Below, piece by piece: positions 2,635 through 32,738 of a stretch of 64,000 nucleotides of DNA (the first letter of the stretch is position 1; each line of letters begins with the position of its first letter). The DNA lies in IMG/VR virus record IMGVR_UViG_3300010367_000170. One strand, given 5' to 3'. Under the pieces are notes generated by a model. It did not search any database and had not been told where the DNA came from. It was given only the letters and a program-made list of their open reading frames with translations. The position numbers were made by a program, and so were the translations under genes. The DNA is from a virus. Lineage: Duplodnaviria; Heunggongvirae; Uroviricota; Caudoviricetes.

Positions 2635-4173
2635 ATGGGTAACGCCATGAGCTTCGATGAGTTCCAGCTCATGCTCAAGCACGGTCCCGACGCGGAGAAG
2701 GACATGGTCCAGGCCATGATCCTCGCCGCTCTCGGCAAGCTCGGCGGTGCCGCCGCCAGCGAGGACGACCTGCTGTTCAAGGGCAAGAAGTTCATCCTGC
2801 CCGCCCAGTTCGAAGGCGACATCCAGGGCGCCGTCAGCTACCTGCGGAACCTGGACGAGCAGCTGAACACCGTCCACGCGTTCCGGCGCACCTTCCGCTA
2901 CCGGCCCGACGACGTCGCCCACGCGCTGGGCGTCGCCATGAAGAAGATCTTCGGCACCACCGGCATCGGCAAGGAGACGGTGGGCTTCTTCGGATCCGTC
3001 ACCCCTCCGACCTTCCGGACCGTCAACACCGGCTTCAACGAGACGGCGCAGGTCATCCAGGGTAAGACCGAGTTCCCGCCGCTGGGCGCCGTCATCACCG
3101 TCCACTACGACCAGGACGCCGAAGTGGGGATGCTCGGGCACCTCATCATCGAAGCGCCGCGCAGGTTCCGCGCCCAGGCTGAGGGCCTGTTCCTGGCGGT
3201 GGAGGACGTCCTCAAGACCGCCTCCATCTACCGGGGCAAGGCTGTCAACGGATCCGACACCCCCGGGTTCCTCAACACCGGCCTGATCGACCCGCGCCGC
3301 GTCATCTACACCGCCGACGTCATGGACCAGCTCGACGCCAACCTGTGGACACCGATCCGCCACACGGACGTCCTGCGGGAGATGGGGATGCCGCTGAAGC
3401 GGGCCGTACTCCTGGAGGGGCCGTACGGCACCGGCAAGTCGATGGCTGCCGCGCTGACCGCCCGGATCTGCGAGGAGAACAGCTGGACGTTCGTCCAGGT
3501 GCGTCCGGGTGACGACCTGGAGCTGGCGATGAAGACCGCGCGGCTGTACGAACCGGCCGTCGTGTTCTACGAGGACGTGGACACCGTCACGGAGAACGGC
3601 GAACCGGCGCACGTGTCCAGGCTCCTGGACATCTTCGACGGCATCGCCGCCAAGGGCGCCGACGTGATCGTGGTCATGACCACGAACCACGTGGACAAGA
3701 TCCAGAAGGGGATGCTGCGCCCGGGACGGATGGACTCGGTCATCCACATCGGTGCGATGGAACCGGACGGTTTCCGGAAGCTCATCGAGGTCAACGTGCC
3801 GGAGGGCATGTTGATGAACATCGACTACGACGAAGTGGGCAAGGCGTTCGACGGTTTCCTGCCCGCGTTCGCGATGGAGGCCATCAACCGGGCGATGCGG
3901 TACGGCGTGTCCCGCTCCAAGGGCAAGCCGGACTTCCTCACCACCCACGACTTCGTCGCTGCCGCCGACGGCCTGCGGCCCCAGCTGGCCCGCATGAACG
4001 AAGCCACCGAGGGCGTGCGGCTGCCCAACGTGGACAAGGCGCTGCGGGACATGGTCCAGGACGCCATCCACAAGTCGGAGTTCGTGAACAACGACCCGGA
4101 CGAGAAGATCGACGACGCGGATGTGTACTACCGGCTGCGCAAGCCGAAGGTGAAGCTGAACGGCGAGCAGTAG
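2635..4173 (+). CDS. AAA-family ATPase (classic AAA: Walker A GPYGTGKS, second region of homology with MLRPGRMD)
   Basis: CGGAGGAAC RBS then ATG. 512 aa. N-terminal ~250 aa domain of unknown function followed by an AAA module. Confidence 0.8.
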   Translation: MGNAMSFDEFQLMLKHGPDAEKDMVQAMILAALGKLGGAAASEDDLLFKGKKFILPAQFEGDIQGAVSYLRNLDEQLNTVHAFRRTFRYRPDDVAHALGVAMKKIFGTTGIGKETVGFFGSVTPPTFRTVNTGFNETAQVIQGKTEFPPLGAVITVHYDQDAEVGMLGHLIIEAPRRFRAQAEGLFLAVEDVLKTASIYRGKAVNGSDTPGFLNTGLIDPRRVIYTADVMDQLDANLWTPIRHTDVLREMGMPLKRAVLLEGPYGTGKSMAAALTARICEENSWTFVQVRPGDDLELAMKTARLYEPAVVFYEDVDTVTENGEPAHVSRLLDIFDGIAAKGADVIVVMTTNHVDKIQKGMLRPGRMDSVIHIGAMEPDGFRKLIEVNVPEGMLMNIDYDEVGKAFDGFLPAFAMEAINRAMRYGVSRSKGKPDFLTTHDFVAAADGLRPQLARMNEATEGVRLPNVDKALRDMVQDAIHKSEFVNNDPDEKIDDADVYYRLRKPKVKLNGEQ

Positions 4174-5341: not shown

Positions 5342-5965
5342 ATGAAGGAATCCACCAAAGACACCGCCACCAGCACCGCGCACGTCAACGGTGTCCTCGC
5401 CGCGATGGGCTACACCGTCGTCGGCGGCAGTCGCGACCGCAACCGGTTCAAGGACGGCTTCCGCGTCCAGAAGCCCACCGAACAGTACGGCGCCATCCCC
5501 GTCACCATCACCAGCCGACGCCGCACCTATGACGTCCAGGCCGAGATCGACAAGATCGTCATCGAGTTCGCCAGCAAGGAACTGGAGATCCACGACATCG
5601 TCGTGTCCGACGACAACAAGTTCGGCAGCTTCACCGTCCGCAGAGCCTTCAACAAGGGCAAGACCGCCGACGGCAAGGGCATCACCCGCATCAAGGGCCG
5701 ATACTGGTTCATCCACCTGCGCGCCTCCGTCGTGTGGACCGTCATGACCGACGCCGACGACACCGACCTGCGCACCGTGGAGGTCGAGAGCGCCCAGTAC
5801 ACCCGCTACCCCTTCTCGATCGTCGCCGAGATGCGGCGCAACGTGAAGGTTCCCGGCCAGCGGATGGTCAACTGGTCCGTCACCGTCAACGGCAAGAAGC
5901 GCAGCGAGTACCCGGGGCTCACCGCCGCCAAGGCGGATGTCCGCAAGGCGCTCCTGGGGGAGTAA
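5342..5965 (+). CDS. Hypothetical protein (207 aa)
   Basis: CCAGGAGGAATAC then ATG. Strong coding bias. Confidence 0.7.
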   Translation: MKESTKDTATSTAHVNGVLAAMGYTVVGGSRDRNRFKDGFRVQKPTEQYGAIPVTITSRRRTYDVQAEIDKIVIEFASKELEIHDIVVSDDNKFGSFTVRRAFNKGKTADGKGITRIKGRYWFIHLRASVVWTVMTDADDTDLRTVEVESAQYTRYPFSIVAEMRRNVKVPGQRMVNWSVTVNGKKRSEYPGLTAAKADVRKALLGE

Positions 5966-15210: not shown

Positions 15211-15414
15211 TCAGTCCTCCGACTGGTTCTTGAGGTTGTTGATCTCCCTGTTGGCCTGCCAGATCTCCCGGAGATGGAGTTCTACGGCTCCGAGGAACAG
15301 TTCGGCCATGAGTCCCCTGTCGGCTTCGGCTTCCCTGGCCAATTCGGCAACGGTGGATTCCAGTCTGCGAATGGACCGGTACCGTGCCGCCTGCCAGTCC
15401 TCCAGGGTGTTCAC
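15211..15414 (-). CDS. Small coiled-coil protein (67 aa), GTGA-coupled
   Basis: GTG 15414 overlaps TGA of the upstream gene. The first 52 aa of listed ORF 15211..15570 overlap the upstream gene and look non-coding. Confidence 0.45.
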   Translation of the reverse strand: MNTLEDWQAARYRSIRRLESTVAELAREAEADRGLMAELFLGAVELHLREIWQANREINNLKNQSED

Positions 15415-16919
15415 CAGCTGGGTCCGATCTCCTTGAGGCCGCCGTTGCCGAGTTCCTGCTGGCGGTAGTGCTCTACCGTCTGCATGTTCTGGCGGAACGC
15501 GTCGTCGGCGCGGGAGCGGACTTGCGGGGCCTGTTCTGGGTCGTCGTCCCAGCGTTCCTGGTTGAGCCACACGGACGGGTGGGGGGTGAACTGGATCTCC
15601 TTGCCGATCATCTGGCAGGTGTTGGCGTAGCTGGCTGCGGCTTCGATGATGCGGTGGGCGGGGGTGCCCTTGGCGACGGCGGCAAGGAAGGCTTTGCGGG
15701 CGGCTCCCTTGCCGGTGCGGCGCGGGTAGTAGTGCCAGAAGGTGTCGAAGTCTTGTTCGTTGTTCTGCTTCAGCGGGGCGGGGGCTGCGGGGAAGGCGAA
15801 CAGGGAGCCGTCGGCGGGGGCTTCTGTGTTGGGGTCGGACAGGAGGAGGTGTCCGGGGACGTTGTGGATCTTGCCGGTGTCGGCGAGGGTGTTGATCCAG
15901 TTGGAGATGTCAGTGGGGGTGATGTCGTCGTCGTAGCGGAAGAGTTCCGCTTTGAGGTAACGCGTATCGGAGACGATCATGGAGGCGGTGTCTGCGAGGC
16001 TGCGAAGCCCCAGGTAGAACAGCCGGATGCCGATGGGGAGGGTTCCCAGGGCAGGGTCGGTGAACGGTGTCATCGCGGCTCTTTCGGTAGTGCGTGGGGA
16101 ATACGTTACCGCGATCTTTGCCTCAACGGGAAGATCGCTTCCGGGCTGGCAAACCGCCGGAGAAACCTCCTCCCGCACTCCTCCGGCACCACTCACCTTA
16201 CGAGGCACGGCAAGCCCCAAGAGGCGCCTAGCAAAGCCCCTAGCCACCCTCCTGGTGGTCCTCCGGTCCGCAGCCGGTCCGGCCCCAACCGGCAACAAGC
16301 CCAAGTGAGGTTCCCGCCTAGCGCTACCCGTAGGCTCCGGACCTGCTTCTGGTCCGGTCTTCATCGGCAAAGCCGATGGATAGATATCTGCGCGCGGCTC
16401 TCCTTGAGAGTTGTCTTCACAAAGCGAGCCGCTAGACCTGTTGTCGCTAGTAAAACCACCGGTCTGTAGATGGTATACGTAATTTTGGCTCTGACCTGCG
16501 TAAACGTCCTCCTGCGGCTCCCACTCCGGATCTTGTTCCTGAGCCTCACGCCAAGCCTGCTCCCGCGCCTCCGAAACCTCCTCCGGCAACGGACACTCCG
16601 GGGTCCCCCCAAGCCGGTACTTCACTACCGGCCGTCTCCGGTCGCAGGGAGCCTCGCCGTCTTGGAGTATGAGCCGGAGGTCACGGAGCTTCCGCAGAGC
16701 CTTCTCGACAGCGCTACGGCTGTAGGAAACCCGCTCCTGAATCCAGGAGATACACAACCGGAACCGATCCCACATAGACCGGCGTGTCCACGACGCGACC
16801 ACGTACAACACCGACGTCTCGCAGCCCGACAAGCCATAGAACTCGGCAGTGTCGGCAGCCCACGCAACAGCGAATTCGTTACTTCCATCAAGCAGGGGCT
16901 TGGACCGGTGGCTCCGCAT
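15411..16919 (-). CDS. Lambda-O-like replication initiator candidate: N-terminal winged-HTH, low-complexity linker, C-terminal conserved domain (502 aa ORF)
   Basis: N-terminal ISWIQERVSYSRSAVEKALRKLRDLRLI is a wHTH. C-terminal FWHYYPRRTGKGAARKAF..WLNQERWDDD has very high GC3. The middle ~140 codons have low GC3 and contain an AT-rich stretch plus iteron-like motifs. An internal ATG at 16073 could alternatively start a separate 221-aa product. Confidence 0.5.
   Translation of the reverse strand: MRSHRSKPLLDGSNEFAVAWAADTAEFYGLSGCETSVLYVVASWTRRSMWDRFRLCISWIQERVSYSRSAVEKALRKLRDLRLILQDGEAPCDRRRPVVKYRLGGTPECPLPEEVSEAREQAWREAQEQDPEWEPQEDVYAGQSQNYVYHLQTGGFTSDNRSSGSLCEDNSQGEPRADIYPSALPMKTGPEAGPEPTGSARREPHLGLLPVGAGPAADRRTTRRVARGFARRLLGLAVPRKVSGAGGVREEVSPAVCQPGSDLPVEAKIAVTYSPRTTERAAMTPFTDPALGTLPIGIRLFYLGLRSLADTASMIVSDTRYLKAELFRYDDDITPTDISNWINTLADTGKIHNVPGHLLLSDPNTEAPADGSLFAFPAAPAPLKQNNEQDFDTFWHYYPRRTGKGAARKAFLAAVAKGTPAHRIIEAAASYANTCQMIGKEIQFTPHPSVWLNQERWDDDPEQAPQVRSRADDAFRQNMQTVEHYRQQELGNGGLKEIGPSW
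16099..16490. promoter_or_regulatory. Putative intragenic origin-like region (iteron-like CGCTAG/CCTAGC repeats, GAATACGTTACCGCG motif, AT-rich GGTATACGTAATTTTGG)
   Basis: Low GC3 in the host ORF frame. Five or more copies of (C/G)CTAGC within about 230 bp. AT-rich block at 16472-16490. Analogous to lambda ori inside gene O. Confidence 0.3.
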
Positions 16920-20464: not shown

Positions 20465-20520
20465 CAACAAAGGGCACGCCTGGGGGAATGGCCTGGGCGT
20501 GCCCGACTTCAGGAGAACGC

Positions 20521-22338
20521 ATGGGATACAACACCAAGTTCAGCGGCACCATCTTCACCGAACCGCAGATGGACTGGACGATGCGCGCCGCCATCCGCGA
20601 ATACTGCGCCAACGCCGACGTCGGCAAGGTCCGCGAGAACTCCGACCTGGACGGCACCTGCGACTGGAAGCCGTCCGACACCGATTTCTCCGGCCTGATA
20701 CACAACGGCATGGAGAAGTCGTACGACCAGGACAAGTGGCTCCGAGCGCTCATCAACGACCTGTTGAAACCTGCCGGGTTCGTCTGCAACGGCGTCATCG
20801 AATGCCAGGGCGAGCAGGCCGGTGACATCTGGCGGATCTACGTCCGCGACAACGAGGTCACCCGGGATGACCTGGCCCCCGGCGCCGTCTGGGAAGACCA
20901 GTATGTCTCCGAACCTTCCTATGCCGAGAAGGTCAACGCTCCGCTGACAGAAGACACGGTGACCGCCCTCGACAAGGAGTTGACCAGCGGCAACATCGCC
21001 AGGTACCGGCGCGCCAGGTACCCGCAGCAGGACGCCGAACTGTTCACTGCCGCCCAAGCAGATGAGGCCCTGAACGCTCTGCGGGCGAGGCTGCACAACA
21101 CCCCGCCGGAACCGGAACCGGCGCCTTCCATGTCTTCCGTCGGCGCCGCTCTACGAGACCTGGGCAACGCCATCGCCTTCAAAGCCACCCAAGGCGTGGA
21201 CGCCGTCGCCAGCTTCGTCACCGACATCGAAGGCGCTTTGGAGCTGTGCACCGAACAAGGCGACATGGCCCCTTTGGACGCCTTGTTCAAGTCCCTCCGT
21301 GACGAACACGACGCTGAAGCCGAACAGGCAGCCAAGTCCGCTGCCGTAGACGACGACATCCCCTCCGAGGGGTTCGCGTCCAGCAACATCGACCCGCCGG
21401 AAGGCTACGGCATCCCCGAAGAGGTCAAGGCGTACGTACGGGAACAGCTGGAAGGCAACAGGGGCTCCCAGGCCGCCTTGATGATTCTCCAGGCGGTTCA
21501 CGATGACGACGTGGACGCCTTGGAAGAGCGCACCGAGAAGCTGAACATCCCGGAGTTCACGCAAGGTCTGGACGATGCCTGGCGGCTCGCCGCCGCGAAC
21601 ATCGCCAAGGCCAGTCTTCCCGCTCCCGCTCCGAAACTCACAGCCGAAGACGTCACGAGCAGGTACCTCATGACGTTGGATCAGGCCCAGGAGATGATCG
21701 ACGGTGGGGCCATCGAGTCCGGCGGCATCCTCTTCGTCAACGAAGCCGCCCGTGACGAGTTCGCCGCTTGGGTGAAAGCCGACCGGGAAACGGCTGAAGC
21801 CGAACACGAAGCCGCCTGGAAGAAGATCCACGCCGAGCAGGCGGAGGAGGAGAAAGTCAGGGAGCAGCTGCGGTACTACGACACCCACGACTCCGTCACC
21901 GGCCAGGACATCCCGGACCTCTCCGAGGAGGACGAAGCCGCAGCAGCGGCCACCCTGGACAAGGCCATCGAAGACGGCACCGCCGGATACACCGTGGCTC
22001 CTCCGGAACGCCGTTTCCTGGACGATGACAACCTGGAGACCTGGGACAGGGAATCCCGGCAGACGCCCGGGAAGACGATCAAGGAAGTCATCGGTGCCGA
22101 CATCCCGCCCAGCCTGTGGGATTCCCTCGACAGCCCCAACGATCACCTGTGGATGATCTGGTCCAACAAGTACAGCCTGTGGTGGATGCCCAACAGCGTC
22201 GGCTACACCGAACACCCCGGCAGCGCCGGACGGTTCACCCTGGAACAGGCCACCGCCATCGTCCTCAAGTCCTGCCGGGGATGGGACCCAGCGCAGTCCT
22301 CTGTGCCGCCGACAACGATCGTGCCCGAACACATCTGA
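20521..22338 (+). CDS. Large acidic hypothetical protein (605 aa)
   Basis: TTCAGGAGAACGC then ATG 20521. Long high-GC3 ORF. Confidence 0.65.
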   Translation: MGYNTKFSGTIFTEPQMDWTMRAAIREYCANADVGKVRENSDLDGTCDWKPSDTDFSGLIHNGMEKSYDQDKWLRALINDLLKPAGFVCNGVIECQGEQAGDIWRIYVRDNEVTRDDLAPGAVWEDQYVSEPSYAEKVNAPLTEDTVTALDKELTSGNIARYRRARYPQQDAELFTAAQADEALNALRARLHNTPPEPEPAPSMSSVGAALRDLGNAIAFKATQGVDAVASFVTDIEGALELCTEQGDMAPLDALFKSLRDEHDAEAEQAAKSAAVDDDIPSEGFASSNIDPPEGYGIPEEVKAYVREQLEGNRGSQAALMILQAVHDDDVDALEERTEKLNIPEFTQGLDDAWRLAAANIAKASLPAPAPKLTAEDVTSRYLMTLDQAQEMIDGGAIESGGILFVNEAARDEFAAWVKADRETAEAEHEAAWKKIHAEQAEEEKVREQLRYYDTHDSVTGQDIPDLSEEDEAAAAATLDKAIEDGTAGYTVAPPERRFLDDDNLETWDRESRQTPGKTIKEVIGADIPPSLWDSLDSPNDHLWMIWSNKYSLWWMPNSVGYTEHPGSAGRFTLEQATAIVLKSCRGWDPAQSSVPPTTIVPEHI

Positions 22339-23819
22339 CGACGACCCAAGACATCTCTGCCCTCCCCTTCACGACTTCCCAACCCCGGCCCCCGCCCCGC
22401 GACTAGCCCATACTCCTCCGCCCTGCCCGCCCGACGAACCTCCCCCTTACGGCCCTTCCCCGTTCGCTCGACTCCTCAGCGCCTGCCTTACCGCGACGAC
22501 ATGTCACCCCGAACCCAGCCCAACCGACTACCCGCTACATCCCAGACCCCTCCGACCGACGAACCTGACCGAAACACACCAGCCCGGACCGACTACACGC
22601 CGCATCCCTGCCCGCGACCGCCCCGACTACCCGACGTACGCCCTGCCCGCCCGACTACCCTGCACATGCCATTTCCCCCGACTTACCAGTGCAGGTCCCC
22701 CCAGCCTTCACGACCCAGACTGACAAACCGTCCCAAGCCGTCCCCGCTGACTGTCCGCATCCCCTCCAGACCGACTACCCCGCACGCCCCTCCCCTGCCG
22801 ACGACCCTTGCCGTCCCATAGACGACAGTCCCAACCGAACCTCACCAGGCCCTACGACTTGCCCGCACAGCACACGCCGACCCGAAACATCCCTCACGAC
22901 AAGTCTGACCCCTTCGAGCCGTCCCAACCCGACCCTCGCGACATCCCGTCCCCACTCCTCCCGGACCTGACCTAACGACAGACCACAACTTTCCAGCGCC
23001 GCCCTGCCCGCGCGACTAGACGACCCATACCAGCTCCCCCCGGACCGACTACCCTCTGCTATCCGGCCCGTCTCATCCCCCTCCAAGCCGACTCCCCCCT
23101 TGAACCGTTCCCGCCCAAACGACAGTCCGGCGCTTATCTCGCCAGGCCGCACGACATCCCCACCCCATACGCACCGCGCCGACGGCCCCCCACCGAACAT
23201 GCCTTGTCTGTTCGACAAACCAGTTCTACCCATCCGACATGCCGACCCGACTCCACGCCGCTCCAAGCCGCACGACATGCCACCCCAGGACAATCCGAGC
23301 GACTTCACGTGTCTTTCCGAGACTTCCCAACTCCCGCGACTACACGAGCCTGGACAACTCTTCCCCGCGCGACATGTCCCCCCGACACCCGACACCCCAA
23401 CCCGTACGACATTCCTTTCCTGCCCGGCTCATTACGACTTCCCGTCCCATCACTCCCCGGCACCTGCCGACAATCCGCATCCTCCCTTGCCAACCGACAT
23501 GTCACCTCCACCCACGCCAGGCGACTTCCCAATTCGACTCAGCCCCGCGTCACTCCAAACCAGCCGACAGACCTCCCCGCGTCTCTCATGCCCGACCCTC
23601 GCCGACTGACCGCCGCATGACACGCCAGTCCAAAACACACGACTAGTCCACTCACCCCCCAACTGCCCTACCCGACAACCCAACGCCTCTCCGGCCGCAG
23701 TGACTAGACAATCCTCTCCACCCCATTCCAAACGACTTGCCTCCACCTCCCATGCCCTCCCCCCAAAATCTCCGGCCAGCGATTCTCTGGCCCGGTCCAC
23801 CCCCAAGAAAGGCACAACC
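22339..23819 (+). repeat. 1.48 kb non-coding, strongly strand-asymmetric C-rich (G-poor on plus strand) region with dispersed iteron-like repeats
   Basis: No frame shows coding GC3. All three plus frames are open only because stop codons need purines. At least 11 copies of CGACTA(C/G) (CCGACTACCC), at least 6 copies of CGACATG(T/C)C(A/C)CC, and repeated CCTGCCCGC(C/G)CGAC. The minus strand is G-run rich. Confidence 0.6.
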
Positions 23820-24548
23820 GTGTCGTACGACAGCTCCTTCGGCGGAGTGTTCGAAGAGTTCGTGGAAGAGACCTGGAAGTTCCAGTACAAGGCGGTGCTC
23901 CAGTTCGTGGACATCGCCGGTGGCGTTCCCTCCGACCCCAAGGTGGCTGAGGGCTGGATCAAGTCCAAGGCCAAGGACCCCAACAAGGAAGACCGCATCC
24001 GCGCCGAAGTGGCGAAGCTCATGGAGGAGCGGAAGCTGTCGGAGGACGAAGCCGCCGCTGAGCTGAACGCGCTGCGGAACTGCAACGGCTTCCGGCGCGA
24101 CAAGGTCACCGGTCAGCTGTACTTCGAGGGACGTCAGGCGAAGGCCGCGCTGAAGGAGGCGGTGTCGGTGGCGGTGGCTGCCGGGAACCTGGAGGCCCGC
24201 AAGTGGGGCAACACCAACAAGGGTGCGATCTCCTTCGCCGCCGAGCACATCCAGGTGCTGACGGAGCAGGTGTTCCTGACGCACCTGGACGGCTCCGCTG
24301 TGAAGTCGCCCACGAAGGTGTTGCAGACGTTCCCGGTGAACCCGATCACGAAGCAGACCGGCATCCAGTACACGGAGATCTGCGAGGACGTGCTGGCGGA
24401 GATCGTCGTCACCACGGACTCCGAGTACAGCCGGGAGAAGTGGGCGAAGATCTGGCTGACCGGAGGCTTGCAGGGCATGGGTGCGTCGCGGTCGCAGGAC
24501 CACGGCCGCTACAAGGTGATCTCGTGGAAGCAGCTGGGCACCAAGTAG
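23820..24548 (+). CDS. Hypothetical protein (242 aa)
   Basis: AAGAAAGG 7 nt before GTG 23820. The N-terminal 40 aa of the listed ORF lie in the C-rich region and look non-coding. Confidence 0.55.
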   Translation: MSYDSSFGGVFEEFVEETWKFQYKAVLQFVDIAGGVPSDPKVAEGWIKSKAKDPNKEDRIRAEVAKLMEERKLSEDEAAAELNALRNCNGFRRDKVTGQLYFEGRQAKAALKEAVSVAVAAGNLEARKWGNTNKGAISFAAEHIQVLTEQVFLTHLDGSAVKSPTKVLQTFPVNPITKQTGIQYTEICEDVLAEIVVTTDSEYSREKWAKIWLTGGLQGMGASRSQDHGRYKVISWKQLGTK

Positions 24549-24574
24549 CCGGTAAGGTAAAGGAGACGATCTCA

Positions 24575-24733
24575 GTGCAAGGGGAAGCCGTGAACATCTG
24601 GCAGGTGCAGGTATGGAGCATCGAACGCCAGCGCTGGGAGACTTGTCTCACCACCGGCGACAAGGAGAGGGCTCGCGAGACATGGAACCGTCTGAGCAAC
24701 GACGGGCTGTCCCCGCGCCTGGTCCGCCTCTAG
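24575..24733 (+). CDS. Small protein (52 aa)
   Basis: AAAGGAG 8 nt before GTG 24575. Confidence 0.4.
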   Translation: MQGEAVNIWQVQVWSIERQRWETCLTTGDKERARETWNRLSNDGLSPRLVRL

Positions 24734-24782
24734 AGACACGGCCTGCCCCCCGAAGCCCTCTCCGTTGCTCTTAGCCCATCTA

Positions 24783-24810
24783 GCGGGCGCATCTAACCGG
24801 ATGCGCCCGC
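24783..24810. terminator. Hairpin GCGGGCGCATC-taaccg-GATGCGCCCGC
   Basis: 11-bp perfect stem after the stop at 24733. Confidence 0.5.
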
Positions 24811-24832
24811 CCGCGTTGAAGGAACCATTTCC

Positions 24833-25030
24833 GTGAACATCGGTCCGACCGGCAGGCGGATCTTCATCGTCCTCTTCTCGTCCCTGGCGCTGTTCAACAT
24901 CATCATGGCGCTGGCCCTCATGACCAACAGCCGGATCCAGCTGGGTCTGGCTTGCGTATTCGTATCCCTGATGGAATCTGCAACCGCCTCTCTCCTCTGG
25001 ACAGCTGCGCCTGTCGCCCGTCGCTGGTAA
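24833..25030 (+). CDS. Small two-TM membrane protein (65 aa)
   Basis: GTG start. Two hydrophobic helices. Weak RBS (AAGGAACC). Confidence 0.4.
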   Translation: MNIGPTGRRIFIVLFSSLALFNIIMALALMTNSRIQLGLACVFVSLMESATASLLWTAAPVARRW

Positions 25031-25076
25031 TGTAACCGGCAACGAACGGCACTCCCAGCCTCAGAGGAACCCCCAA

Positions 25077-26078
25077 TTGAATGAGATCGTCCAACAGCGC
25101 ACTGCTGCCCCCGCAGTCCCAGGCAGCTTCAACAACCCCGTCCCGAACACCCTCGCCGAACTGGCTAAGGTCCCCATCGGGACACCACTGCGGTCGCTGG
25201 AAGAGGTTGTCCTCTTCGGACGCGCTCTTGCCTTTGCGGGTCTCCTCCCCGACTCCCTGACAGACCGCCGCACCGGCACCGTCAAAGTCGCAGACGTGGT
25301 ACTGCTGCTCTGCATGGGGACAGAGCTTGACCTCTCCCCCATGCAGGCCATCAGCGGTATCTACGTCGTCAAGGGCCGCCCGATGCTGTCGGCCCAGCTG
25401 TGGGGCACCCGGGTCCGCAAGTTCGGGCACTCCCTTGAGGTGCGTCTGGAGAAGAACAAGCACGGCCGCCCCATCTCCTCCACCTGCACCATCACCCGTG
25501 GCGACGACGGCACCGTCCACGAGGAGGAGTTCACCGTCTGGGATGCCCTCGGAGCCGGGCTGATCCAGAAAGTGGACGATGAGGGCAAGGTGATTGCCCG
25601 CATCAACGGCAACCCCACCCCGTGGGAGCAGTACACCAAGACGATGCTGCGGAACCGCTCCATCTCCCACTGCGCCCGGTTCGCCTGCCCGGAAGTCATC
25701 TACGGCACCATGGGTATCCAGGGCGAAGAGTATGACGAACTCTCCGATGAGGAAGGTTTCGGCACCGACAAGTTCGTGGCCGGTAAGTCCATCGAGGGCA
25801 CGCCGACGCAGCAGGATAACCTGGCCGGAGAGCTGACCGCTTTGGCGGAACGGATGGCCGGGCAGGGCGGACCCAAGACCATCGCCGAAGCCTTGGAGCC
25901 TTTGACCGGCGATGACGAGACCAAAGCCAAGCTGTTCCTGGAACAGCTGAACGAACCGGGCCACGCCGTCCGGGAACACCCGGGCTTGCGGACCTGCGAG
26001 ATCTGCGGTACCCGGATGCTGCCGCAGGACCACGTCGGTGAAGACCACGACCCGGTGTGGGTTGTGGAGCCGGAGTGA
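25077..26078 (+). CDS. recT: RecT-family single-strand annealing protein
   Basis: AGAGGAA then TTG 25077. LDLSPMQAISGIYVVKGRPMLSAQLW is a typical RecT core. Confidence 0.75.
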   Translation: MNEIVQQRTAAPAVPGSFNNPVPNTLAELAKVPIGTPLRSLEEVVLFGRALAFAGLLPDSLTDRRTGTVKVADVVLLLCMGTELDLSPMQAISGIYVVKGRPMLSAQLWGTRVRKFGHSLEVRLEKNKHGRPISSTCTITRGDDGTVHEEEFTVWDALGAGLIQKVDDEGKVIARINGNPTPWEQYTKTMLRNRSISHCARFACPEVIYGTMGIQGEEYDELSDEEGFGTDKFVAGKSIEGTPTQQDNLAGELTALAERMAGQGGPKTIAEALEPLTGDDETKAKLFLEQLNEPGHAVREHPGLRTCEICGTRMLPQDHVGEDHDPVWVVEPE

Positions 26079-26407: not shown

Positions 26408-26661
26408 TCCTGCTCCGCGATCACTTCGCGGCGCCCCCGGACTTGGACATCCGTCTCGTCCAGTACAAGGTCTGGGCTGTCGGGTCAGAGGGTGTGTACC
26501 TGCACACCCTCTGGTCCGCCGGTGGCCGCTTCTACATGTGCGATCACGTCGTCCACCAGGACAACCCGCCGTTCTGGGATGACACCCGGATGAGCGACCT
26601 CATCGAATGCTCCTATGTGGAGTTCCTACGCCACGCCGAACAGATGGAGGGAAAGCCGTGA
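26404..26661 (+). CDS. Hypothetical protein (85 aa), GTGA-coupled
   Basis: GTG overlaps the upstream stop. Confidence 0.5.
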   Translation: MILLRDHFAAPPDLDIRLVQYKVWAVGSEGVYLHTLWSAGGRFYMCDHVVHQDNPPFWDDTRMSDLIECSYVEFLRHAEQMEGKP

Positions 26662-27557
26662 CCTCCACATCCGCTCTGCTGCTTCTCTACAACCAGATCC
26701 ATGTCCGTTCCCAGCAGCGGGAGTTGGGCTGGTCCGATATGGGGGGCTGCCGCCGACGCGCCCGGTACATCCTGGACGGCTACGAGCCGGTGAACCAGGT
26801 GTCGTCGGTGGTGGCGATGATCGGTACCGCCATCCACAAGCAGGTGCAGACGACGCTTGAGGCTTTGGGGATGCCTGCGGAGTGGGAGGTGGAGTACGCA
26901 GGCATCCGGGGCCACTTCGACAGGTACGAGGAGGAGTTCCACCGCCTCGTAGATACCAAGACCGTATCGAGTCGTTATCTTGAATCGCTCAAGCTTCACG
27001 GCCCTCCCGTGGCTCACCGTTGGCAGGTGTCGGGGTACGCAGCCGGGATGATCATCGAAGGCTACAAGGTGAAGACGTGCCGCCTGGACTACCTGACCCG
27101 GGACACCGGCGAGGAGTGGCAGTACGAGTGGCATTTCGACCCCAAGGATGTGCAGGACGCCTTGGAGTGGCTGAAGGACGTTCGGGACGTCCCGTTTGAT
27201 CTTGTCCCCCGGGATTACGAACCGGATTCGGCGTGGTGTACCGGCTGCCCGTTCGGCGGTAAGGATGGCGGTATCTGCTGGTCCGGCGGCGTTCCGGACA
27301 GGGATCAGAGGTCTGTGCTGTTGGCGGAGGGAGCCAACGCCGCCGACCTTGCCCAGGAGCTTTTCCTGCTGCGGAAGCAGGTGAAGTCGATGGAGGCGCG
27401 AGGCAAAGAGCTGAAGGGGATTCTGGATGGGTTGAGACCGGATGAGCCCGGGGTTGTCGTCAAGGCTGGCGACTACTATTTGACCTGGTCTCCGACGGCG
27501 CGGGGGGATTCTTTCCAGCTTCGTTTCACGTCGCCTCCGCAGCCTAAGGTCGTTTAG
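26658..27557 (+). CDS. PD-(D/E)xK exonuclease with Cas4/RecB-like Cys cluster (RecE-equivalent partner of RecT)
   Basis: GTG 26658 in GTGA overlap. Motifs GHFDRY, VDTK, SRYL. C-terminal CTGCPFGGKDGGIC plus an N-terminal Cys suggest an Fe-S cluster. Confidence 0.65.
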   Translation: MTSTSALLLLYNQIHVRSQQRELGWSDMGGCRRRARYILDGYEPVNQVSSVVAMIGTAIHKQVQTTLEALGMPAEWEVEYAGIRGHFDRYEEEFHRLVDTKTVSSRYLESLKLHGPPVAHRWQVSGYAAGMIIEGYKVKTCRLDYLTRDTGEEWQYEWHFDPKDVQDALEWLKDVRDVPFDLVPRDYEPDSAWCTGCPFGGKDGGICWSGGVPDRDQRSVLLAEGANAADLAQELFLLRKQVKSMEARGKELKGILDGLRPDEPGVVVKAGDYYLTWSPTARGDSFQLRFTSPPQPKVV

Positions 27558-27938: not shown

Positions 27939-28129
27939 TGACCGGCGAACGCCCAACAGACCGCCGCCGGACCCAACAGAAAACCCAACAGACCCCAGAG
28001 CCGGAACGCAAAGACTTCCCCGGTCTGGAAAACGACCCGGACTGCCTCAGACCGGTCTACGAATCATGGGAGCGGTGGCTGAAAGCCAAGCAGAACCCTC
28101 CGGAACCCAACCAGGAGAACAACAAGTGA
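27938..28129 (+). CDS. Small hydrophilic protein (63 aa), coupled at both ends (TGATG / GTGA)
   Basis: ATG overlaps upstream TGA. Its stop overlaps the GTG of the vWA gene. Moderate GC3. Confidence 0.3.
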   Translation: MTGERPTDRRRTQQKTQQTPEPERKDFPGLENDPDCLRPVYESWERWLKAKQNPPEPNQENNK

Positions 28130-29226
28130 CCCAGCTCAAGCAGAACCGCATCAACCACGTCGTACTGGTCCTGGACGCCTCTTCGTCCATGTCCGACGCC
28201 GGACTCACCTCCACCGTCATCAAGGTCTCCGACAACATCATCAAGTTCCTGGCGAAGCTCTCCAAAGAGCAGGACCAGGAGACCCGGATCACCGTCTACG
28301 TGTTCGCCGACAACGCCCAGTGCGTCATCTACGACATGGACGTGCTGCGGCTCCCGTCCCTCGCCGCGTACTACAAGCCGTACGGCTGGACAGCCCTCAT
28401 CGACGCCGCCGCCCTGGGCATCGACGACCTGCTGATGACGCCGCAGAAGTACGGCGATCACGCGTTCATCATGTACGTCGTCAGTGACGGCTTGGAGAAC
28501 CGCTCCCGCCACCACTCCTCCAACAGCCTCCGCACCAAGATCGCCAGTCTTCCCAACAACTGGACCCTCGCCGCCCTGGTCCCCAACACCCAGGGCAAAC
28601 TCGCCGCCGAATCCTACGGATTCCCGCGCGGCAACATCGAGATCTGGGATGCCACCAGCCGCGAAGGCGTCGAAGAGTCCGGCCGCCGCATCGAAGCCGC
28701 CACCAGCAACTTCATGACCGCTCGCGCCACCGGCACCCGTTCCACCACCAACCTGTTCGACATCGGCGCCAACGTCGTCAACGCCGAAGCCATCCGCAAC
28801 GCCGGTCTGAAGCCGTTGGACTACGACGAATACGACCTGGTGCCGGTCGGCGTGTGGCCGGGCCAGGTCAAGCCCGCCGACTACGACGAGAAGAAGCGCC
28901 GCAAGCCGTGGAAGGCCCACGGCGGACGTATCGACAAGTTCGTGCAGAACGTGCGTGGCGGGCAGTACATCATCGGACAGGCGTACTACCAGCTGATGGA
29001 AGGCACCACGGTCCGGGTCCAGGCCAGCAAGAAGATCGCCATCGTGGACAAGAAGACAGACCGCGTGTACGTCGGTGACGGGGCGCGGCAGCTCCTGGGC
29101 CTCGACAGCGGCAGGGAGGAGCGGATCAAGCCGACCGCGTCCCACGACTACCTGGTGTTCGTCCAGTCCAAGGCCGCGAACCGGCTGCTGATCCCCGGCA
29201 GCAAGCTGCTCATCTTCAAGAAGTAA
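28126..29226 (+). CDS. von Willebrand factor type A (vWA) domain protein
   Basis: AGGAGAACAACAA then GTG 28126. MIDAS motif VLVLDASSSMS ... SDGLEN. The N-terminal 20 aa of the listed ORF are non-coding. Confidence 0.75.
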   Translation: MTQLKQNRINHVVLVLDASSSMSDAGLTSTVIKVSDNIIKFLAKLSKEQDQETRITVYVFADNAQCVIYDMDVLRLPSLAAYYKPYGWTALIDAAALGIDDLLMTPQKYGDHAFIMYVVSDGLENRSRHHSSNSLRTKIASLPNNWTLAALVPNTQGKLAAESYGFPRGNIEIWDATSREGVEESGRRIEAATSNFMTARATGTRSTTNLFDIGANVVNAEAIRNAGLKPLDYDEYDLVPVGVWPGQVKPADYDEKKRRKPWKAHGGRIDKFVQNVRGGQYIIGQAYYQLMEGTTVRVQASKKIAIVDKKTDRVYVGDGARQLLGLDSGREERIKPTASHDYLVFVQSKAANRLLIPGSKLLIFKK

Positions 29227-31332: not shown

Positions 31333-31770
31333 ATGGAACAACGCGCCGTACTCTCCGTCAGAGAAATGGAACTGTTCATCCTGCTTGGACGCCACGGCGC
31401 CACCAAAAGCCAAGCCGCCCACACCATGACCATCTCCCCCTACACGGTGAAACAACACCTCGCGCGCGTCGCCAAGCGCATCGGCAGCAACGGAACCGCC
31501 AACGCGCTCCACATCCTGATCTGCGAAAAAGTCATTCCTGTCGAACTCGTCTCCGCCCGTCGGCGTCTCCTCCCCATAGAAAGAGTCATCCTCGAAGACG
31601 TCGCCAAAGGCTTCTCCAACTCGGACATAGCCGCCCGCGCAGGAATGACGCTCCCGCAGACGCAATACGCCATAAAAAGACTGTTCAAGACGATGCGCGC
31701 GAACACCCGGATACAACTCGTCTACCGAGGTCACCAAACCGGTCACCTCACAACCAACCGGAGGAACTAA
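31333..31770 (+). CDS. Tandem LuxR/GerE-type HTH transcriptional regulator (two HTH units, 145 aa)
   Basis: GGAAGGGGGAACGAC then ATG. LSVREMELFILLGRHGATKSQAAHTMTISPYTVKQHLARVAKRIG and a second LLPIERVILEDVAKGFSNSDIAARAGMTLPQTQYAIKRLFKTM. Confidence 0.7.
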   Translation: MEQRAVLSVREMELFILLGRHGATKSQAAHTMTISPYTVKQHLARVAKRIGSNGTANALHILICEKVIPVELVSARRRLLPIERVILEDVAKGFSNSDIAARAGMTLPQTQYAIKRLFKTMRANTRIQLVYRGHQTGHLTTNRRN

Positions 31771-32738
31771 TGAGCTACAACGGGCCGTCAACCAAGGCCG
31801 TGGGTATCGGCTGCCTCGCCGCCGCTGCCGTCTTCACCGGAGCCGTGTTCGCCACCGGCTACGCCATGTCGTTCGAGTCCACCACCCCCGGACAGATCGC
31901 GGTGGTCCGCAACGGCGGACCCATGTCCGGCAAGAGCATCAAGCAGATCCTGCCCCCCGGCCACGGCGGCACCTACGTCGGCTACTGGACCACCGTCCAC
32001 TTCTACCCGGCCACCCAGTCCAGCTACACCATCACCGACGACGTGAAGGAAGGCGACCAGCCCGGCGTGGACGTCATCTCGGTGCCGTCGGCCGACGGCG
32101 TCCAGATGGGGCTTCAGGGCACCCTCTACTTCACCCTCAACACCGACCCGGCGACGGTGAAGAAGTTCGACGACAAGTTCGGCACCCGCAGCTTCACCTA
32201 CGGAGGCGAGTCCGGCCACGCCTACGACGGCAACAAGGGCTTCGGCATCTTCATGAACCAGGTAGTCAGGCCCGTGATCAACAACGCCGTCCGCCAGGCC
32301 ATCGCGGGCAAGCGCTGCTCCGAGCTGCTGGCGTCGTGCGCCCTGGTACAGAACACCGGGCAGCCGGTGAACTTCAACACCGTCCCCGTCGGCTCCGTGA
32401 ACATCAACGACGTCCAGAGCGCCATCAACAGCGACCTGGAGAACGACATCAACAACACCCTCGGCGGTAACTTCTTCACCGGCCTGAAGTTCAACCTCAA
32501 CAAGGTTGACGTCCCCCCCAACGTCCAGGAAGCCATCAACAACGCCCAGTCGGCGTTTGCCGCAGTCTCCCAGTCCCAGGCGAAGATCGCGCAGGCGCAG
32601 GCCGACGCCAAGGCCAACGAGACCAGGCAGAATGGCTACAACGCCTGCCCCGTCTGCGGCCAGATCGACATGCTGCACGCCCTGCCGCCCGGTCTCACCA
32701 CCTACGCTCCCGGCACCCAGTTCGCCGTCACCAAGTAG
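31770..32738 (+). CDS. SPFH/band-7 (stomatin/prohibitin-like) domain membrane protein
   Basis: ACCGGAGGAACTA then ATG. N-terminal TM then QIAVVRNGG..K..L.PG fold signature with an Ala/Gln-rich coiled-coil tail. Confidence 0.65.
   Translation: MSYNGPSTKAVGIGCLAAAAVFTGAVFATGYAMSFESTTPGQIAVVRNGGPMSGKSIKQILPPGHGGTYVGYWTTVHFYPATQSSYTITDDVKEGDQPGVDVISVPSADGVQMGLQGTLYFTLNTDPATVKKFDDKFGTRSFTYGGESGHAYDGNKGFGIFMNQVVRPVINNAVRQAIAGKRCSELLASCALVQNTGQPVNFNTVPVGSVNINDVQSAINSDLENDINNTLGGNFFTGLKFNLNKVDVPPNVQEAINNAQSAFAAVSQSQAKIAQAQADAKANETRQNGYNACPVCGQIDMLHALPPGLTTYAPGTQFAVTK

What the first reader, a model, noticed from the sequence alone, without database searches (positions are those of the whole stretch)
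22339..23819. 1.5 kb non-coding, extremely strand-skewed C-rich region with two iteron families
- **Size and position:** this is the largest gene-free stretch in the window, lying between a 605-aa gene and the next good start at 23820.
- **Composition:** the plus strand is almost G-free (CA/CT-rich), so the minus strand carries many G-runs.
- **No coding signal:** no frame has coding-like GC3 (about 65% versus over 85% in real genes). The Pro-rich ORFs that appear in all three plus frames are artefacts of stop-codon depletion.
- **Repeats:** it carries at least 11 copies of CGACTA(C/G) (mostly CCGACTACCC) and at least 6 copies of CGACATG(T/C)C(A/C)CC, plus recurring CCTGCCCGC(C/G)CGAC.
- **Candidate roles:** a replication origin or centromere-like site (a ParB-like gene sits at the window edge), a packaging/partition site, or an R-loop or G4-forming element. 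Nothing like it is part of standard actinophage gene maps.
Basis: seen in the sequence. Interest (0 to 1): 0.75.

Follow-up and report, generated by a model that had tools for sequence, protein, structure and literature searches.

The report
Five-base-phased repeat array beside Cas7-like gene
A 1.5-kb non-coding stretch of this phage genome consists of about 300 five-base steps that each end in C, punctuated by the word CGAC, and in related phages it nearly always sits beside a gene whose protein folds like Cas7, the CRISPR backbone protein, which points to an undescribed protein–nucleic-acid filament system in phages of actinobacteria.

Summary
The region is real, non-coding, and far from chance. 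It is not two iteron families. It is one degenerate array with a strict grammar. C recurs every 5 nt (77-89% C at phased positions against 40% off-phase). The phase is reset at each CGAC(T/A)(A/T), giving unit lengths of 3+5n (8...28, 33, 38 nt).

Among about 58 homologous loci with enough flank, 56 carry the same kind of array within about 2 kb. These are phages and prophages of Streptomyces, Nocardiopsis, Actinomadura and others, with protein identity down to about 35%. The array is almost always C-rich on the locally transcribed strand. The sense transcript would be almost unstructured.

Best reading: the array is the cognate single-stranded partner, probably RNA, of a filament-forming Cas7-like protein that reads one C per 5-nt footprint. 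The biological role is unknown. The origin, centromere and G4 readings are poorly supported. I found no description in the literature.

The parts
22339..23819 (+). Pentad-phased C-rich array. It has 57 CGAC anchors and about 300 five-nt steps. It starts on the base after the TGA stop of the upstream gene and ends at the ribosome-binding site (gaaagg) of the Cas7-like gene.
   Evidence: In the window, C frequency is 0.77-0.89 at positions -10, -5, +8, +13, +18 and +23 relative to CGAC, against 0.40 off-phase. 27 of 57 CGAC have C at all six phased positions, against 0 of 554 CGAC elsewhere on the + strand. A fixed-prior parse gives 266 five-nt steps, and 11 of its 12 three-nt steps are C-GAC.
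22524..22533 (+). One of five perfect copies of CCGACTACCC, the commonest full form of the anchor. The others start at 22623, 22651, 22771 and 23045.
   Evidence: 5 copies inside the array and 0 in the other 62.5 kb. The same word recurs in arrays of relatives at only 33-48% protein identity.
23820..24548 (+). Gene for a 242-aa stand-alone Cas7-like RAMP protein, the proposed binding partner of the array.
   Evidence: - AlphaFold2 model with pLDDT 84.
- The top 50 Foldseek PDB hits are all chains of type VII, type III-A/B or Cas7-11 effector complexes, with E about 6e-7 and probability 1.0.
- There is an invariant C-terminal glycine-rich loop, GxGASRSQGxGRY, and an invariant GG-P-D after strand 1.
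- No Pfam, NCBIfam or PADLOC family matches.
- The family has 751 clusters at 50% identity.
20488..22338 (+). Upstream 616-aa acidic protein. Its C-terminal domain (W-I-W-S-N...G-Y-T...G-R-F...G-W-D) is shared with short proteins that sit directly upstream of the array in L003, L005 and L006. It may be a second component in this clade.
   Evidence: It is not homologous to the ~180-aa protein family that occupies the same position in 30 other loci.
25077..26078 (+). RecT-like single-strand annealing protein. This is context, not a conserved partner of the array.
   Evidence: phrog_561, E 2e-18. It is conserved only within the window's own clade.
26607..27557 (+). Cas4-like PD-(D/E)XK exonuclease. 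This is context, part of the recombination module.
   Evidence: The TIGR00372 score is 24.6 bits, below the cut-off of 65.

Best explanation
The region is a 'pentad array'. It is a long non-coding element written in five-nucleotide steps that each end in C (consensus D-N-N-c-C). It is punctuated every 23-38 nt by CGAC(T/A)(A/T), where the register slips by a 3-nt step (C-GAC).

I propose that the region is transcribed together with its neighbours into an almost structure-free, C/A-rich RNA. The Cas7-like RAMP protein encoded immediately downstream would then polymerise along this single strand, one subunit per 5 nt. Each subunit would read one phased cytosine. The CGAC words would act as nucleation, boundary or processing marks that divide the filament into segments of 5, 6 or 7 subunits.

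What is shown:
- the grammar of the array;
- purifying selection on the phased Cs;
- the Cas7-like fold prediction;
- the near-obligate genomic linkage of array and gene across a large, divergent phage and prophage family;
- co-orientation with transcription;
- the lack of predicted RNA structure.

What is inferred:
- that the protein binds the array;
- that the bound form is RNA rather than single-stranded DNA;
- the footprint of 5 nt per subunit.

The downstream biology is open. One candidate is shielding a long untranslated, Rho-prone RNA, so as to gate or time expression of the genes behind it. Another is production of crRNA-like small RNPs. A third is a decoy for host class 1 CRISPR complexes.
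For: 1. **Grammar.** Pooled over 56 arrays (52 kb, 1608 CGAC), C frequency is 0.83, 0.82, 0.80, 0.77 and 0.73 at +8, +13, +18, +23 and +28, and 0.79 and 0.73 at -5 and -10. CGAC spacings peak at 8, 13, 18, 23, 28, 33, 38, 43, 48 and 53 (window alone). The lag-5 autocorrelation of C has z = 7.8 and is unique in the window. Phase slips occur at CGAC: 260 of 339 three-nt steps are C-GAC, against 14 of 101 in the control.
2. **Selection.** In alignable patches between close relatives, phased Cs are 94% conserved, other Cs 84% and non-C bases 80%. The arrays otherwise turn over fast; only patches align between phages whose Cas7-like proteins are 82-89% identical.
3. **Partner.** The downstream protein is Cas7-like by two independent structure searches.
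4. **Linkage.** 48 of about 58 homologous loci have the array directly upstream of the gene. Eight more have it within about 2 kb. One of the two exceptions has arrays elsewhere on the same contig. The linkage holds at 33% identity (Mae-JY09, array directly downstream) and in a profile-only relative (L125).
5. **Single-strand, RNA-like features.**
   - The array is C-rich on the strand of the flanking genes in 72 of 83 cases.
   - The sense RNA folds at -20 kcal/mol per 150 nt, against -54 for the flanks; the antisense folds at -49.
   - No + strand terminator-like site was found between 19000 and 25000.
   - The array starts on the base after the upstream stop codon.
6. **Precedent, from established knowledge.** Cas7 subunits polymerise on single-stranded RNA with a fixed footprint of 6 nt, and type III crRNAs differ in length by that footprint. 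The tobacco mosaic virus assembly origin has G every third base, matching 3 nt per coat subunit.
Against: - There is no experimental or transcriptomic evidence that the array is expressed or bound.
- Known Cas7 proteins have a 6-nt footprint and bind the backbone without base specificity. A 5-nt, C-specific register would be new.
- TM-scores to Cas7 structures are moderate (0.45-0.58), and there is no sequence-level match to any Cas family.
- The loci were collected through the protein, so linkage in the reverse direction is less well tested. One true short array (L094, after a terminase gene) has no Cas7-like gene within 14.5 kb of an 18-kb contig.
- Other genes also sit next to the array: a ~180-aa family in 30 loci, and in this clade the C-terminal domain of the 616-aa protein. 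Either could be the real ligand, or a co-ligand.
- A long C-rich, G-poor untranslated RNA should be a strong Rho substrate. It might therefore never accumulate.
Confidence: 0.55

Rival explanations
1. DNA-level element. The array would be a replication origin, partition site or packaging site whose repeats are iterons bound by a double-strand DNA-binding protein.
For: - It is a large gene-free repeat array in the replication and recombination part of the genome.
- A replication-initiator-like gene lies at 15411-16919 and a RecT/exonuclease pair lies downstream.
- There is a ParB_N domain at 1-327.
- Strong strand asymmetry can accompany origins.
Against: - Spacings of 3+5n nt and a 5-nt sub-period put successive sites on different helical faces.
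- There is no AT-rich unwinding region, since GC is >=0.60 throughout.
- There is only one weak inverted repeat.
- Orientation follows local transcription.
- Two to four arrays can occur within 10 kb (L051, L052, L056, L058, L089).
- The arrays persist in integrated prophages.
- The array tracks the Cas7-like gene, not Rep or ParB genes, whose presence and position vary between loci.
Confidence: 0.1
2. A giant Rho-utilisation (rut) or Rho-dependent terminator zone, or more generally a compositional 'unstructured RNA' spacer. The ligand would be a host factor such as Rho or RNase E rather than the Cas7-like protein.
For: - The stretch is 49% C and 17% G over 1.5 kb, untranslated and almost unstructured. 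This is the textbook signature of Rho loading sites.
- From my own knowledge, mycobacterial RNase E cleaves 5' of C in single-stranded RNA.
- The arrays lie between genes, sometimes after the last gene of a block (L094).
Against: - Rho needs only about 80 nt and no fixed word. It does not explain the conserved CGAC(T/A)(A/T), the exact 5-nt phasing, the quantised units or the 94% conservation of phased Cs.
- It does not explain the near-obligate linkage to one phage protein family.
- This reading is compatible with the best explanation as a sub-function, in which the protein shields the RNA from Rho.
Confidence: 0.12
3. A non-B DNA or R-loop element. The minus strand would form G-quadruplexes, the plus strand i-motifs, or transcription would form R-loops that prime replication or recombination.
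For: - There are 96 runs of C3 or longer and 11 canonical four-run G4 motifs on the minus strand.
- GC skew is extreme.
- RecT and an exonuclease lie next door.
Against: - The conserved feature is a single C every 5 nt, not runs of three or more.
- Distant arrays keep the phasing with much weaker skew and many Gs (L125).
- Sense transcription makes C-rich RNA, which is the unfavourable polarity for R-loops.
- The CGAC word is not explained.
Confidence: 0.05
4. A cryptic coding region, such as a proline-rich or low-complexity protein, or a gene decoded with frameshifts. Automatic gene callers imply this in relatives.
For: - Stop codons are depleted on the + strand (4-6 per frame).
- Gene callers placed genes inside homologous arrays: 171 aa in L001, 257 aa in L006 and 674 aa in L125.
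Against: - GC is flat across codon positions in every frame, whereas real genes here have GC3 of 0.75-0.95.
- The periodicity is 5 nt, not 3.
- Unit lengths of 28, 33 and 38 nt are not multiples of 3.
- Arrays of close relatives differ by unit gain and loss.
- No protein homologue exists.
Confidence: 0.01

Closest known systems
Class 1 CRISPR-Cas effector backbones (Cas7/Csm3/Cmr4/Csf2 on crRNA) and their CRISPR arrays
   Same: - The protein has a RAMP (Cas7-type) fold.
- The gene lies next to a non-coding, unidirectional repeat array.
- Unit lengths are quantised by a fixed step, as type III crRNAs differ by the 6-nt Cas7 footprint.
- A short conserved word at each unit start is reminiscent of the 8-nt crRNA handle.
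   Different: - No cas1, cas2, cas5, cas6, cas8, cas10 or cas11 gene was found.
- The 'repeat' is a degenerate 6-10-nt word, not a 23-55-nt near-identical repeat. Tandem Repeats Finder and the repeat finder see no CRISPR-like array.
- The inter-word segments are not free spacers. They are C-phased and G-poor.
- The step is 5 nt rather than 6, and it is base-specific.
- Units are 23-38 nt rather than about 60-75 nt.
- The system is encoded by phages.
Type IV-B Csf complexes (Cas7-like Csf2 filaments on non-CRISPR RNA; PMC7937560)
   Same: - A Cas7-like filament with no CRISPR array and no nuclease partner.
- It is found in Actinobacteria-associated mobile elements.
   Different: - Type IV-B also has Csf1, Csf3 and Cas11, and it binds heterogeneous cellular RNAs.
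- Here a single RAMP gene travels with its own dedicated, sequence-patterned array.
Tobacco mosaic virus origin of assembly, and TRAP-binding (G/U)AG repeats (own knowledge)
   Same: A base recurs with the period of a protein subunit's footprint on single-stranded RNA. In TMV this is G every 3 nt. For TRAP it is triplets every 5-6 nt. This is the functional analogy for reading a phased C as one contact per subunit.
   Different: - The proteins are unrelated.
- Those elements are tens of nucleotides long. This one is 0.3-2.6 kb, with internal CGAC punctuation.
Iteron-type phage and plasmid replication origins, and parS centromeres
   Same: They are clustered direct repeats in a gene-free region near replication genes.
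   Different: - Iterons are 17-22 bp, few in number, helically phased and next to an AT-rich region and the cognate rep gene.
- parS sites are palindromic.
- None of these features holds here.
Rho-utilisation (rut) sites
   Same: C-rich, G-poor, unstructured, untranslated RNA.
   Different: rut sites have no conserved word and no exact phasing. They are about 80 nt long and are not linked to a dedicated phage protein.

Membership tests
CRISPR array / CRISPR-Cas locus | Near-identical direct repeats of about 23-55 bp at regular intervals | tested here: not met
   The longest shared core is about 9-10 nt (CCGACTACCC, 5 copies). Repeat families are 61-86% alike. Tandem Repeats Finder reports only trivial 6-10-nt repeats of 2-3.5 copies each.
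CRISPR array / CRISPR-Cas locus | Unconstrained, unique spacers between repeats | tested here: not met
   The inter-word segments do vary. They are nonetheless constrained: C at every 5th base (about 80%), G about 17%, and lengths quantised as 3+5n.
CRISPR array / CRISPR-Cas locus | Adaptation genes (cas1/cas2) or further effector genes (cas5, cas6, cas8/10, cas11) nearby | tested here: not met
   Pfam, PHROGs, NCBIfam and PADLOC scans of the neighbours found only a sub-threshold Cas4-like exonuclease. Only the genes around the array were scanned, not every ORF of the window.
Cas7 / RAMP superfamily (protein 23820-24548) | RRM-based RAMP fold that matches several Cas7 families better than other ferredoxin-like folds | tested here: met
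Cas7 / RAMP superfamily (protein 23820-24548) | C-terminal glycine-rich loop | tested here: inconclusive
   G219, G221 and G229 are invariant in GxGASRSQGxGRY, just before the last strand. The position fits a RAMP G-rich loop, but I made no residue-level superposition.
Cas7 / RAMP superfamily (protein 23820-24548) | Sequence-profile membership in a curated Cas7 family | tested here: not met
   No Pfam, NCBIfam or PADLOC Cas7 hit. A profile search of PDB sequences gives only E 0.84 to a type VII Cas5.
Cas7 / RAMP superfamily (protein 23820-24548) | Polymerises on single-stranded RNA with a fixed footprint | not testable with these tools
   This is inferred only from the 5-nt phasing and the quantised units of the adjacent array.
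Iteron-type replication origin | Helically phased iterons with an adjacent AT-rich unwinding element | tested here: not met
   Spacing is 3+5n with a 5-nt sub-period. GC is >=0.60 in every 300-nt window of the region.
Iteron-type replication origin | Linked to the cognate initiator gene | tested here: not met
   The initiator-like gene (15411-16919) is 5.4 kb away on the other strand. Across loci the array tracks the Cas7-like gene instead.
parS / centromere | Palindromic ParB-binding sites near parAB | tested here: not met
   There is one 12-nt inverted repeat at 83% complementarity. The ParB_N gene is 22 kb away.
Rho-utilisation site | C-rich, G-poor, unstructured, untranslated RNA of at least about 80 nt | tested here: met
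   49% C and 17% G. MFE is -20 against -54 kcal/mol per 150 nt. There is no coding signal. Termination itself is not testable here.

The most novel reading that the evidence does not exclude
The array and its Cas7-like gene form a minimal, phage-borne, CRISPR-independent RAMP ribonucleoprotein system. The transcript would be cut or segmented at CGAC into 28-, 33- and 38-nt units. Each unit would be held by 5-7 Cas7-like subunits in a 5-nt, cytosine-reading register. If so, this is either a sister lineage or a relic of the ancestor of class 1 CRISPR effector backbones, with its own non-CRISPR 'array'. The phage would use it for gene-expression control (for example as a Rho shield or timer) or for counter-defence.
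Probability: 0.3. Interest if true: 0.92.

Novelty: categorically new. Interest (0 to 1): 0.86.

Why it matters
If the inference holds, it would matter in three ways.

- **RAMP proteins outside CRISPR.** This would be the first RAMP/Cas7-type protein with a dedicated, sequence-patterned, non-CRISPR nucleic-acid partner, and it is encoded by viruses. That bears directly on how class 1 effector backbones arose and on what RAMP proteins do outside CRISPR.
- **A new genomic element.** It defines a new kind of genomic 'grammar': 5-nt cytosine phasing with CGAC register marks. The grammar can be searched for. It is currently mis-annotated as hypothetical genes of up to 674 aa. The protein family is large, with 751 clusters at 50% identity, mostly in soil actinobacterial phages and prophages.
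- **Practical use.** A protein that measures RNA in 5-nt, C-specific steps would be a new programmable RNA scaffold.

All of this is directly testable with one purified 27-kDa protein and synthetic oligonucleotides.

Tried and rejected
- **DNA similarity.** blastn of the region against 50,697 phage records gave no hit. tblastn of the 616-aa protein gave none. Single-sequence scans of IMG/VR with either flanking protein found nothing. The profile-based scans then worked.
- **RNA families.** Rfam at E<=1 found no family.
- **Tandem repeats.** Tandem Repeats Finder reported no array, because the units are too degenerate.
- **Structure libraries.** The afdb50 fold library was not available.
- **The ~180-aa family upstream of arrays.** It has no Pfam hit, no convincing PHROG hit and no PDB sequence hit. 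It has no homologue in the window and no convincing relation to the 616-aa protein.
- **Parsing the step grammar.** Unsupervised EM parsing degenerated twice, to 13/15-nt steps and to 3-nt steps. I replaced it with a fixed-prior parse and a Markov control.
- **Reverse DNA-pattern search.** It returned many chance hits in low-GC giant-virus bins and one Pro/Thr-rich coding region (L118). I set these aside.
- **Literature.** Seven full-text searches found nothing that describes this pairing. They covered actinophage C-rich non-coding regions, Cas7-like proteins in phages, stand-alone viral RAMPs, Cas7 filaments on non-CRISPR RNA, and Streptomyces phage intergenic repeats. The translational-bypassing paper that came up (PMC10732093) is unrelated.
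- **Ideas dropped.**
  - RecT as the 5-nt reader, because RecT is conserved only in this clade.
  - CRISPR repeat mimicry (RNA anti-CRISPR), because there is no repeat-like hairpin and almost no G.
Full report
**The observation**

Window 22339-23819 is 49% C and 17% G. GC skew is about -0.5 over the whole stretch and nowhere else between 18 and 28 kb. GC content is the same (0.64-0.66) at all three codon positions in all three frames. Real genes of this window have GC3 of 0.75-0.95. The region begins on the base after the TGA stop of a 616-aa ORF (20488-22338). It ends at the ribosome-binding site of a 242-aa gene (23820-24548), whose start is fixed by the 222-250-aa lengths of its homologues.

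CGACTA[CG] occurs 10 times, CGACATG[TC]C[AC]CC 4 times and CCTGCCCGC[CG]CGAC 3 times. The latter two, and CCGACTACCC (5 copies), are absent from the other 62.5 kb. The window is a tailed phage with a tape-measure protein, a major head protein and an endolysin.

CGAC occurs 57 times on the + strand and GTCG about once. The distances between successive CGACs are not random. They pile up at 8/9, 13, 18/19, 23, 27/28, 32/33 and 37/38 nt.

Aligning all CGAC sites shows why. C recurs at +8, +13, +18 and +23, and at -5 and -10, relative to the first C of CGAC. In the window these positions are 77-89% C, against 40% at off-phase positions. The first C of CGAC is in phase with the pentads before it. 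The last C starts the phase of the pentads after it. Each unit is therefore 'GAC' plus n five-nt steps.

The lag-5 autocorrelation of C is +0.21 (z = 7.8 against shuffles). No other part of the 64-kb window shows it. Of the 57 CGACs in the region, 27 have C at all six phased positions. Outside the region, 0 of 554 do on the + strand and 1 of 394 on the - strand.

A parse with a fixed prior gives 266 five-nt steps in the window, and 11 of its 12 three-nt steps are C-GAC. Over 32 arrays, 260 of 339 three-nt steps are C-GAC, against 14 of 101 in a Markov control. Phase positions are 91.5% C, against 75% in the control.

The 'two iteron families' are therefore variants of one degenerate anchor, CGAC-W-W-n-c-C.

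**Relatives**

The DNA has no match among 50,697 phage records. The downstream protein, however, has hundreds of homologues. A profile search of the 50%-identity library finds 751 clusters at E<=1e-3.

The contigs encoding homologues at 89%, 82%, 73%, 59%, 56% and 48% identity all carry a C-rich, CGAC-dense, 5-nt-phased gene-free stretch directly upstream of the homologue. These stretches are 0.45-2.6 kb long.

I then fetched 13 loci from species-representative genomes and 47 from IMG/VR. The genomes include Streptomyces, Nocardiopsis, Actinomadura, Streptosporangium, Streptacidiphilus, Pedococcus and Kineosporiaceae.
- Of about 58 loci with enough flank, 48 have the array immediately upstream.
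- Eight more have it within about 2 kb upstream or downstream, and some have several arrays.
- Of the two loci without one, one has arrays elsewhere on the same contig (L082).

The only isolate in the phage collection with a homologue is 'Microcystis phage' Mae-JY09, at 33% identity. Its array lies directly downstream of the gene and uses the same word, CCGACTACCC. A relative detectable only by profile (L125) has a 2.3-kb array just downstream. Its skew is weaker, but its 5-nt phasing is if anything stronger, with lag-5 values of 0.2-0.36.

Pooled over 56 arrays (52 kb), CGAC spacings peak at every 3+5n from 8 to 53. There are 1608 CGAC, against 911 +/- 29 expected.

**How the arrays evolve**

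Phages whose Cas7-like proteins are 82-89% identical share only scattered patches of array at 70-100% identity. Units are gained, lost and shuffled quickly. Within those patches, phased Cs are 94% conserved, other Cs 84% and non-C bases 80%. Selection therefore acts on the pattern, not on particular unit sequences.

**The partner protein**

The 242-aa protein has no Pfam, NCBIfam, PHROG-function or PADLOC assignment. An AlphaFold2 model built from a 62-sequence alignment has mean pLDDT 84.
- Foldseek agrees. Its top 50 hits are all chains of type VII, type III-A/B or Cas7-11 effector complexes, with E down to 6e-7 and probability 1.0. TM-scores are a moderate 0.45-0.58.
- The best viral structure matches include a protein named 'Cas system-associated RAMP superfamily protein'.
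- The family has an invariant GG-P-D after strand 1 and an invariant glycine-rich loop, GxGASRSQGxGRY, before the last strand. Both are where RAMP proteins carry functional loops.

No other cas gene was found nearby. The Cas4-like exonuclease at 26607-27557 belongs with RecT (25077-26078) in an ordinary recombination module. That module is conserved only in this clade.

**Single strand, probably RNA**

- The array is C-rich on the strand of the flanking genes in 72 of 83 scored cases. Several of the exceptions are shadow ORFs.
- The sense transcript is predicted to be nearly structure-free, at -20 kcal/mol per 150 nt against -54 for the flanks. The antisense would fold almost normally, at -49.
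- Both G and U are depleted. This is the composition that minimises pairing.
- No + strand terminator-like site lies between 19000 and 25000. The array abuts the upstream stop codon, so co-transcription is the simplest expectation.
- A 5-nt period with slips of 3 is awkward for recognition on one face of duplex DNA. It is natural for a protein that steps along a single strand.

**Interpretation**

My best explanation (confidence about 0.55) is that the array is the dedicated single-stranded partner, most likely RNA, of the Cas7-like protein. The protein would polymerise along it with a 5-nt footprint and read one cytosine per subunit. CGAC would mark nucleation sites, boundaries or cleavage sites that divide the filament into runs of 5-7 subunits.

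Two analogies rest on established knowledge.
- Cas7 backbones have fixed footprints, and type III crRNA lengths step by that footprint.
- The TMV assembly origin has a G every third base, which mirrors 3 nt per coat subunit.

What the filament is for is not shown. A 1.5-kb untranslated, C-rich, G-poor RNA is an ideal Rho substrate. Protein coating could therefore gate read-through into the recombination genes as a timer. Alternatively, the units could be processed into crRNA-like particles. The complex could also interfere with host class 1 CRISPR machinery.

**Caveats**

- No expression or binding data exist.
- Known Cas7 proteins use 6 nt and are not base-specific.
- The loci were collected through the protein. 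One true short array (L094, after a terminase gene) has no Cas7-like gene in the 14.5 kb available.
- Other array-adjacent proteins exist: a ~180-aa helical, basic family in 30 loci, and in this clade the C-terminal domain of the 616-aa protein.

**Rivals**

- **Origin, centromere or packaging site (about 0.10).** This is contradicted by the spacing, the lack of an AT-rich element or palindromes, the transcription-linked orientation, the multiplicity of arrays, and the lack of linkage to Rep or ParB genes.
- **Plain Rho or host-factor element (about 0.12).** This explains the composition. It does not explain the word, the phasing or the linkage.
- **G4, i-motif or R-loop element (about 0.05).** The conserved feature is single phased Cs, and distant arrays lose much of the skew.
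- **Coding (about 0.01).** This is excluded by composition and by periodicity.

**Novelty**

Seven full-text searches found no description of a stand-alone phage Cas7-like protein with a dedicated non-CRISPR array, or of a 5-nt cytosine-phased array.

The closest known system is the class 1 CRISPR effector backbone. Type IV-B is the nearest case, because there a Cas7-like filament assembles on non-CRISPR RNA (PMC7937560). The element nevertheless fails the defining tests of a CRISPR array. It has no long repeats, no free spacers and no further cas genes. It also fails the defining tests of an iteron origin.

I therefore rate it as a new kind of element. Its function is inferred, not demonstrated.

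Noticed in passing
L001 5381-5896; L006 5953-6726 (and perhaps 5458-5814); L125 3879-5903: Automatic gene callers have placed 'genes' of 171, 257 and 674 aa inside homologous arrays. The + strand has few stop codons, so these arrays are probably widely mis-annotated as hypothetical Pro-rich proteins.
   Followed up: partly
30 loci, e.g. L039 3730-4245, L015 2688-3233, L068 5417-5956: A ~175-185-aa protein family (consensus ...RDY.AEM...DPELL.GWL...) sits directly upstream of the array in 30 of about 57 loci. It looks helical and basic from its sequence (not modelled). It has no Pfam or PDB match and is absent from this window. It may be a second component of the system.
   Followed up: partly
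window 20488-22338 (C-terminal ~90 aa); L003 5688-6116; L005 5589-5810; L006 5458-5814: In the window's clade, the gene directly upstream of the array always ends with the same small domain (W-I-W-S-N..W..P..G-Y-T....G-R-F....G-W-D). In the window it is fused to a long acidic region. In relatives it is a stand-alone small protein.
   Followed up: partly
L068 (PP395641.1, 'Microcystis phage Mae-JY09'): The last 7.2 kb of this record is 73% G+C. From my own knowledge, that is very high for a phage of Microcystis (about 42% G+C). It also carries an actinophage-type Cas7-like gene and array. The host assignment looks doubtful.
   Followed up: no
L051, L052, L056, L058, L089; L053 1801-2600 and L056 7851-8800: Some genomes carry two to four separate arrays within 10 kb. 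In two loci, one array is inverted relative to the Cas7-like gene. The protein would then have to act in trans on several sites.
   Followed up: partly
L094 9551-10000 (minus strand): A genuine short array of about 13 units lies just after a terminase large-subunit gene. No Cas7-like gene is detectable in the 14.5 kb fetched from an 18-kb contig.
   Followed up: partly
It is 22 kb from the array.
   Followed up: yes
window 2635-4173; 28066-29226; 31770-32738: Other early-region genes are an AAA/STAND-like ATPase, a vWA-domain protein (phrog_26613) that is conserved next to the recombination module in relatives, and an SPFH/Band 7 protein.
   Followed up: no
window 27459 (minus strand): This is the only CGAC outside the array with C at all six phased positions. 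It is a single isolated site, probably chance.
   Followed up: no
window 24549-25076: The gap between the Cas7-like gene and recT corresponds to two small called genes (47 and 65-67 aa) in close relatives (L001-L006). I did not examine them.
   Followed up: no
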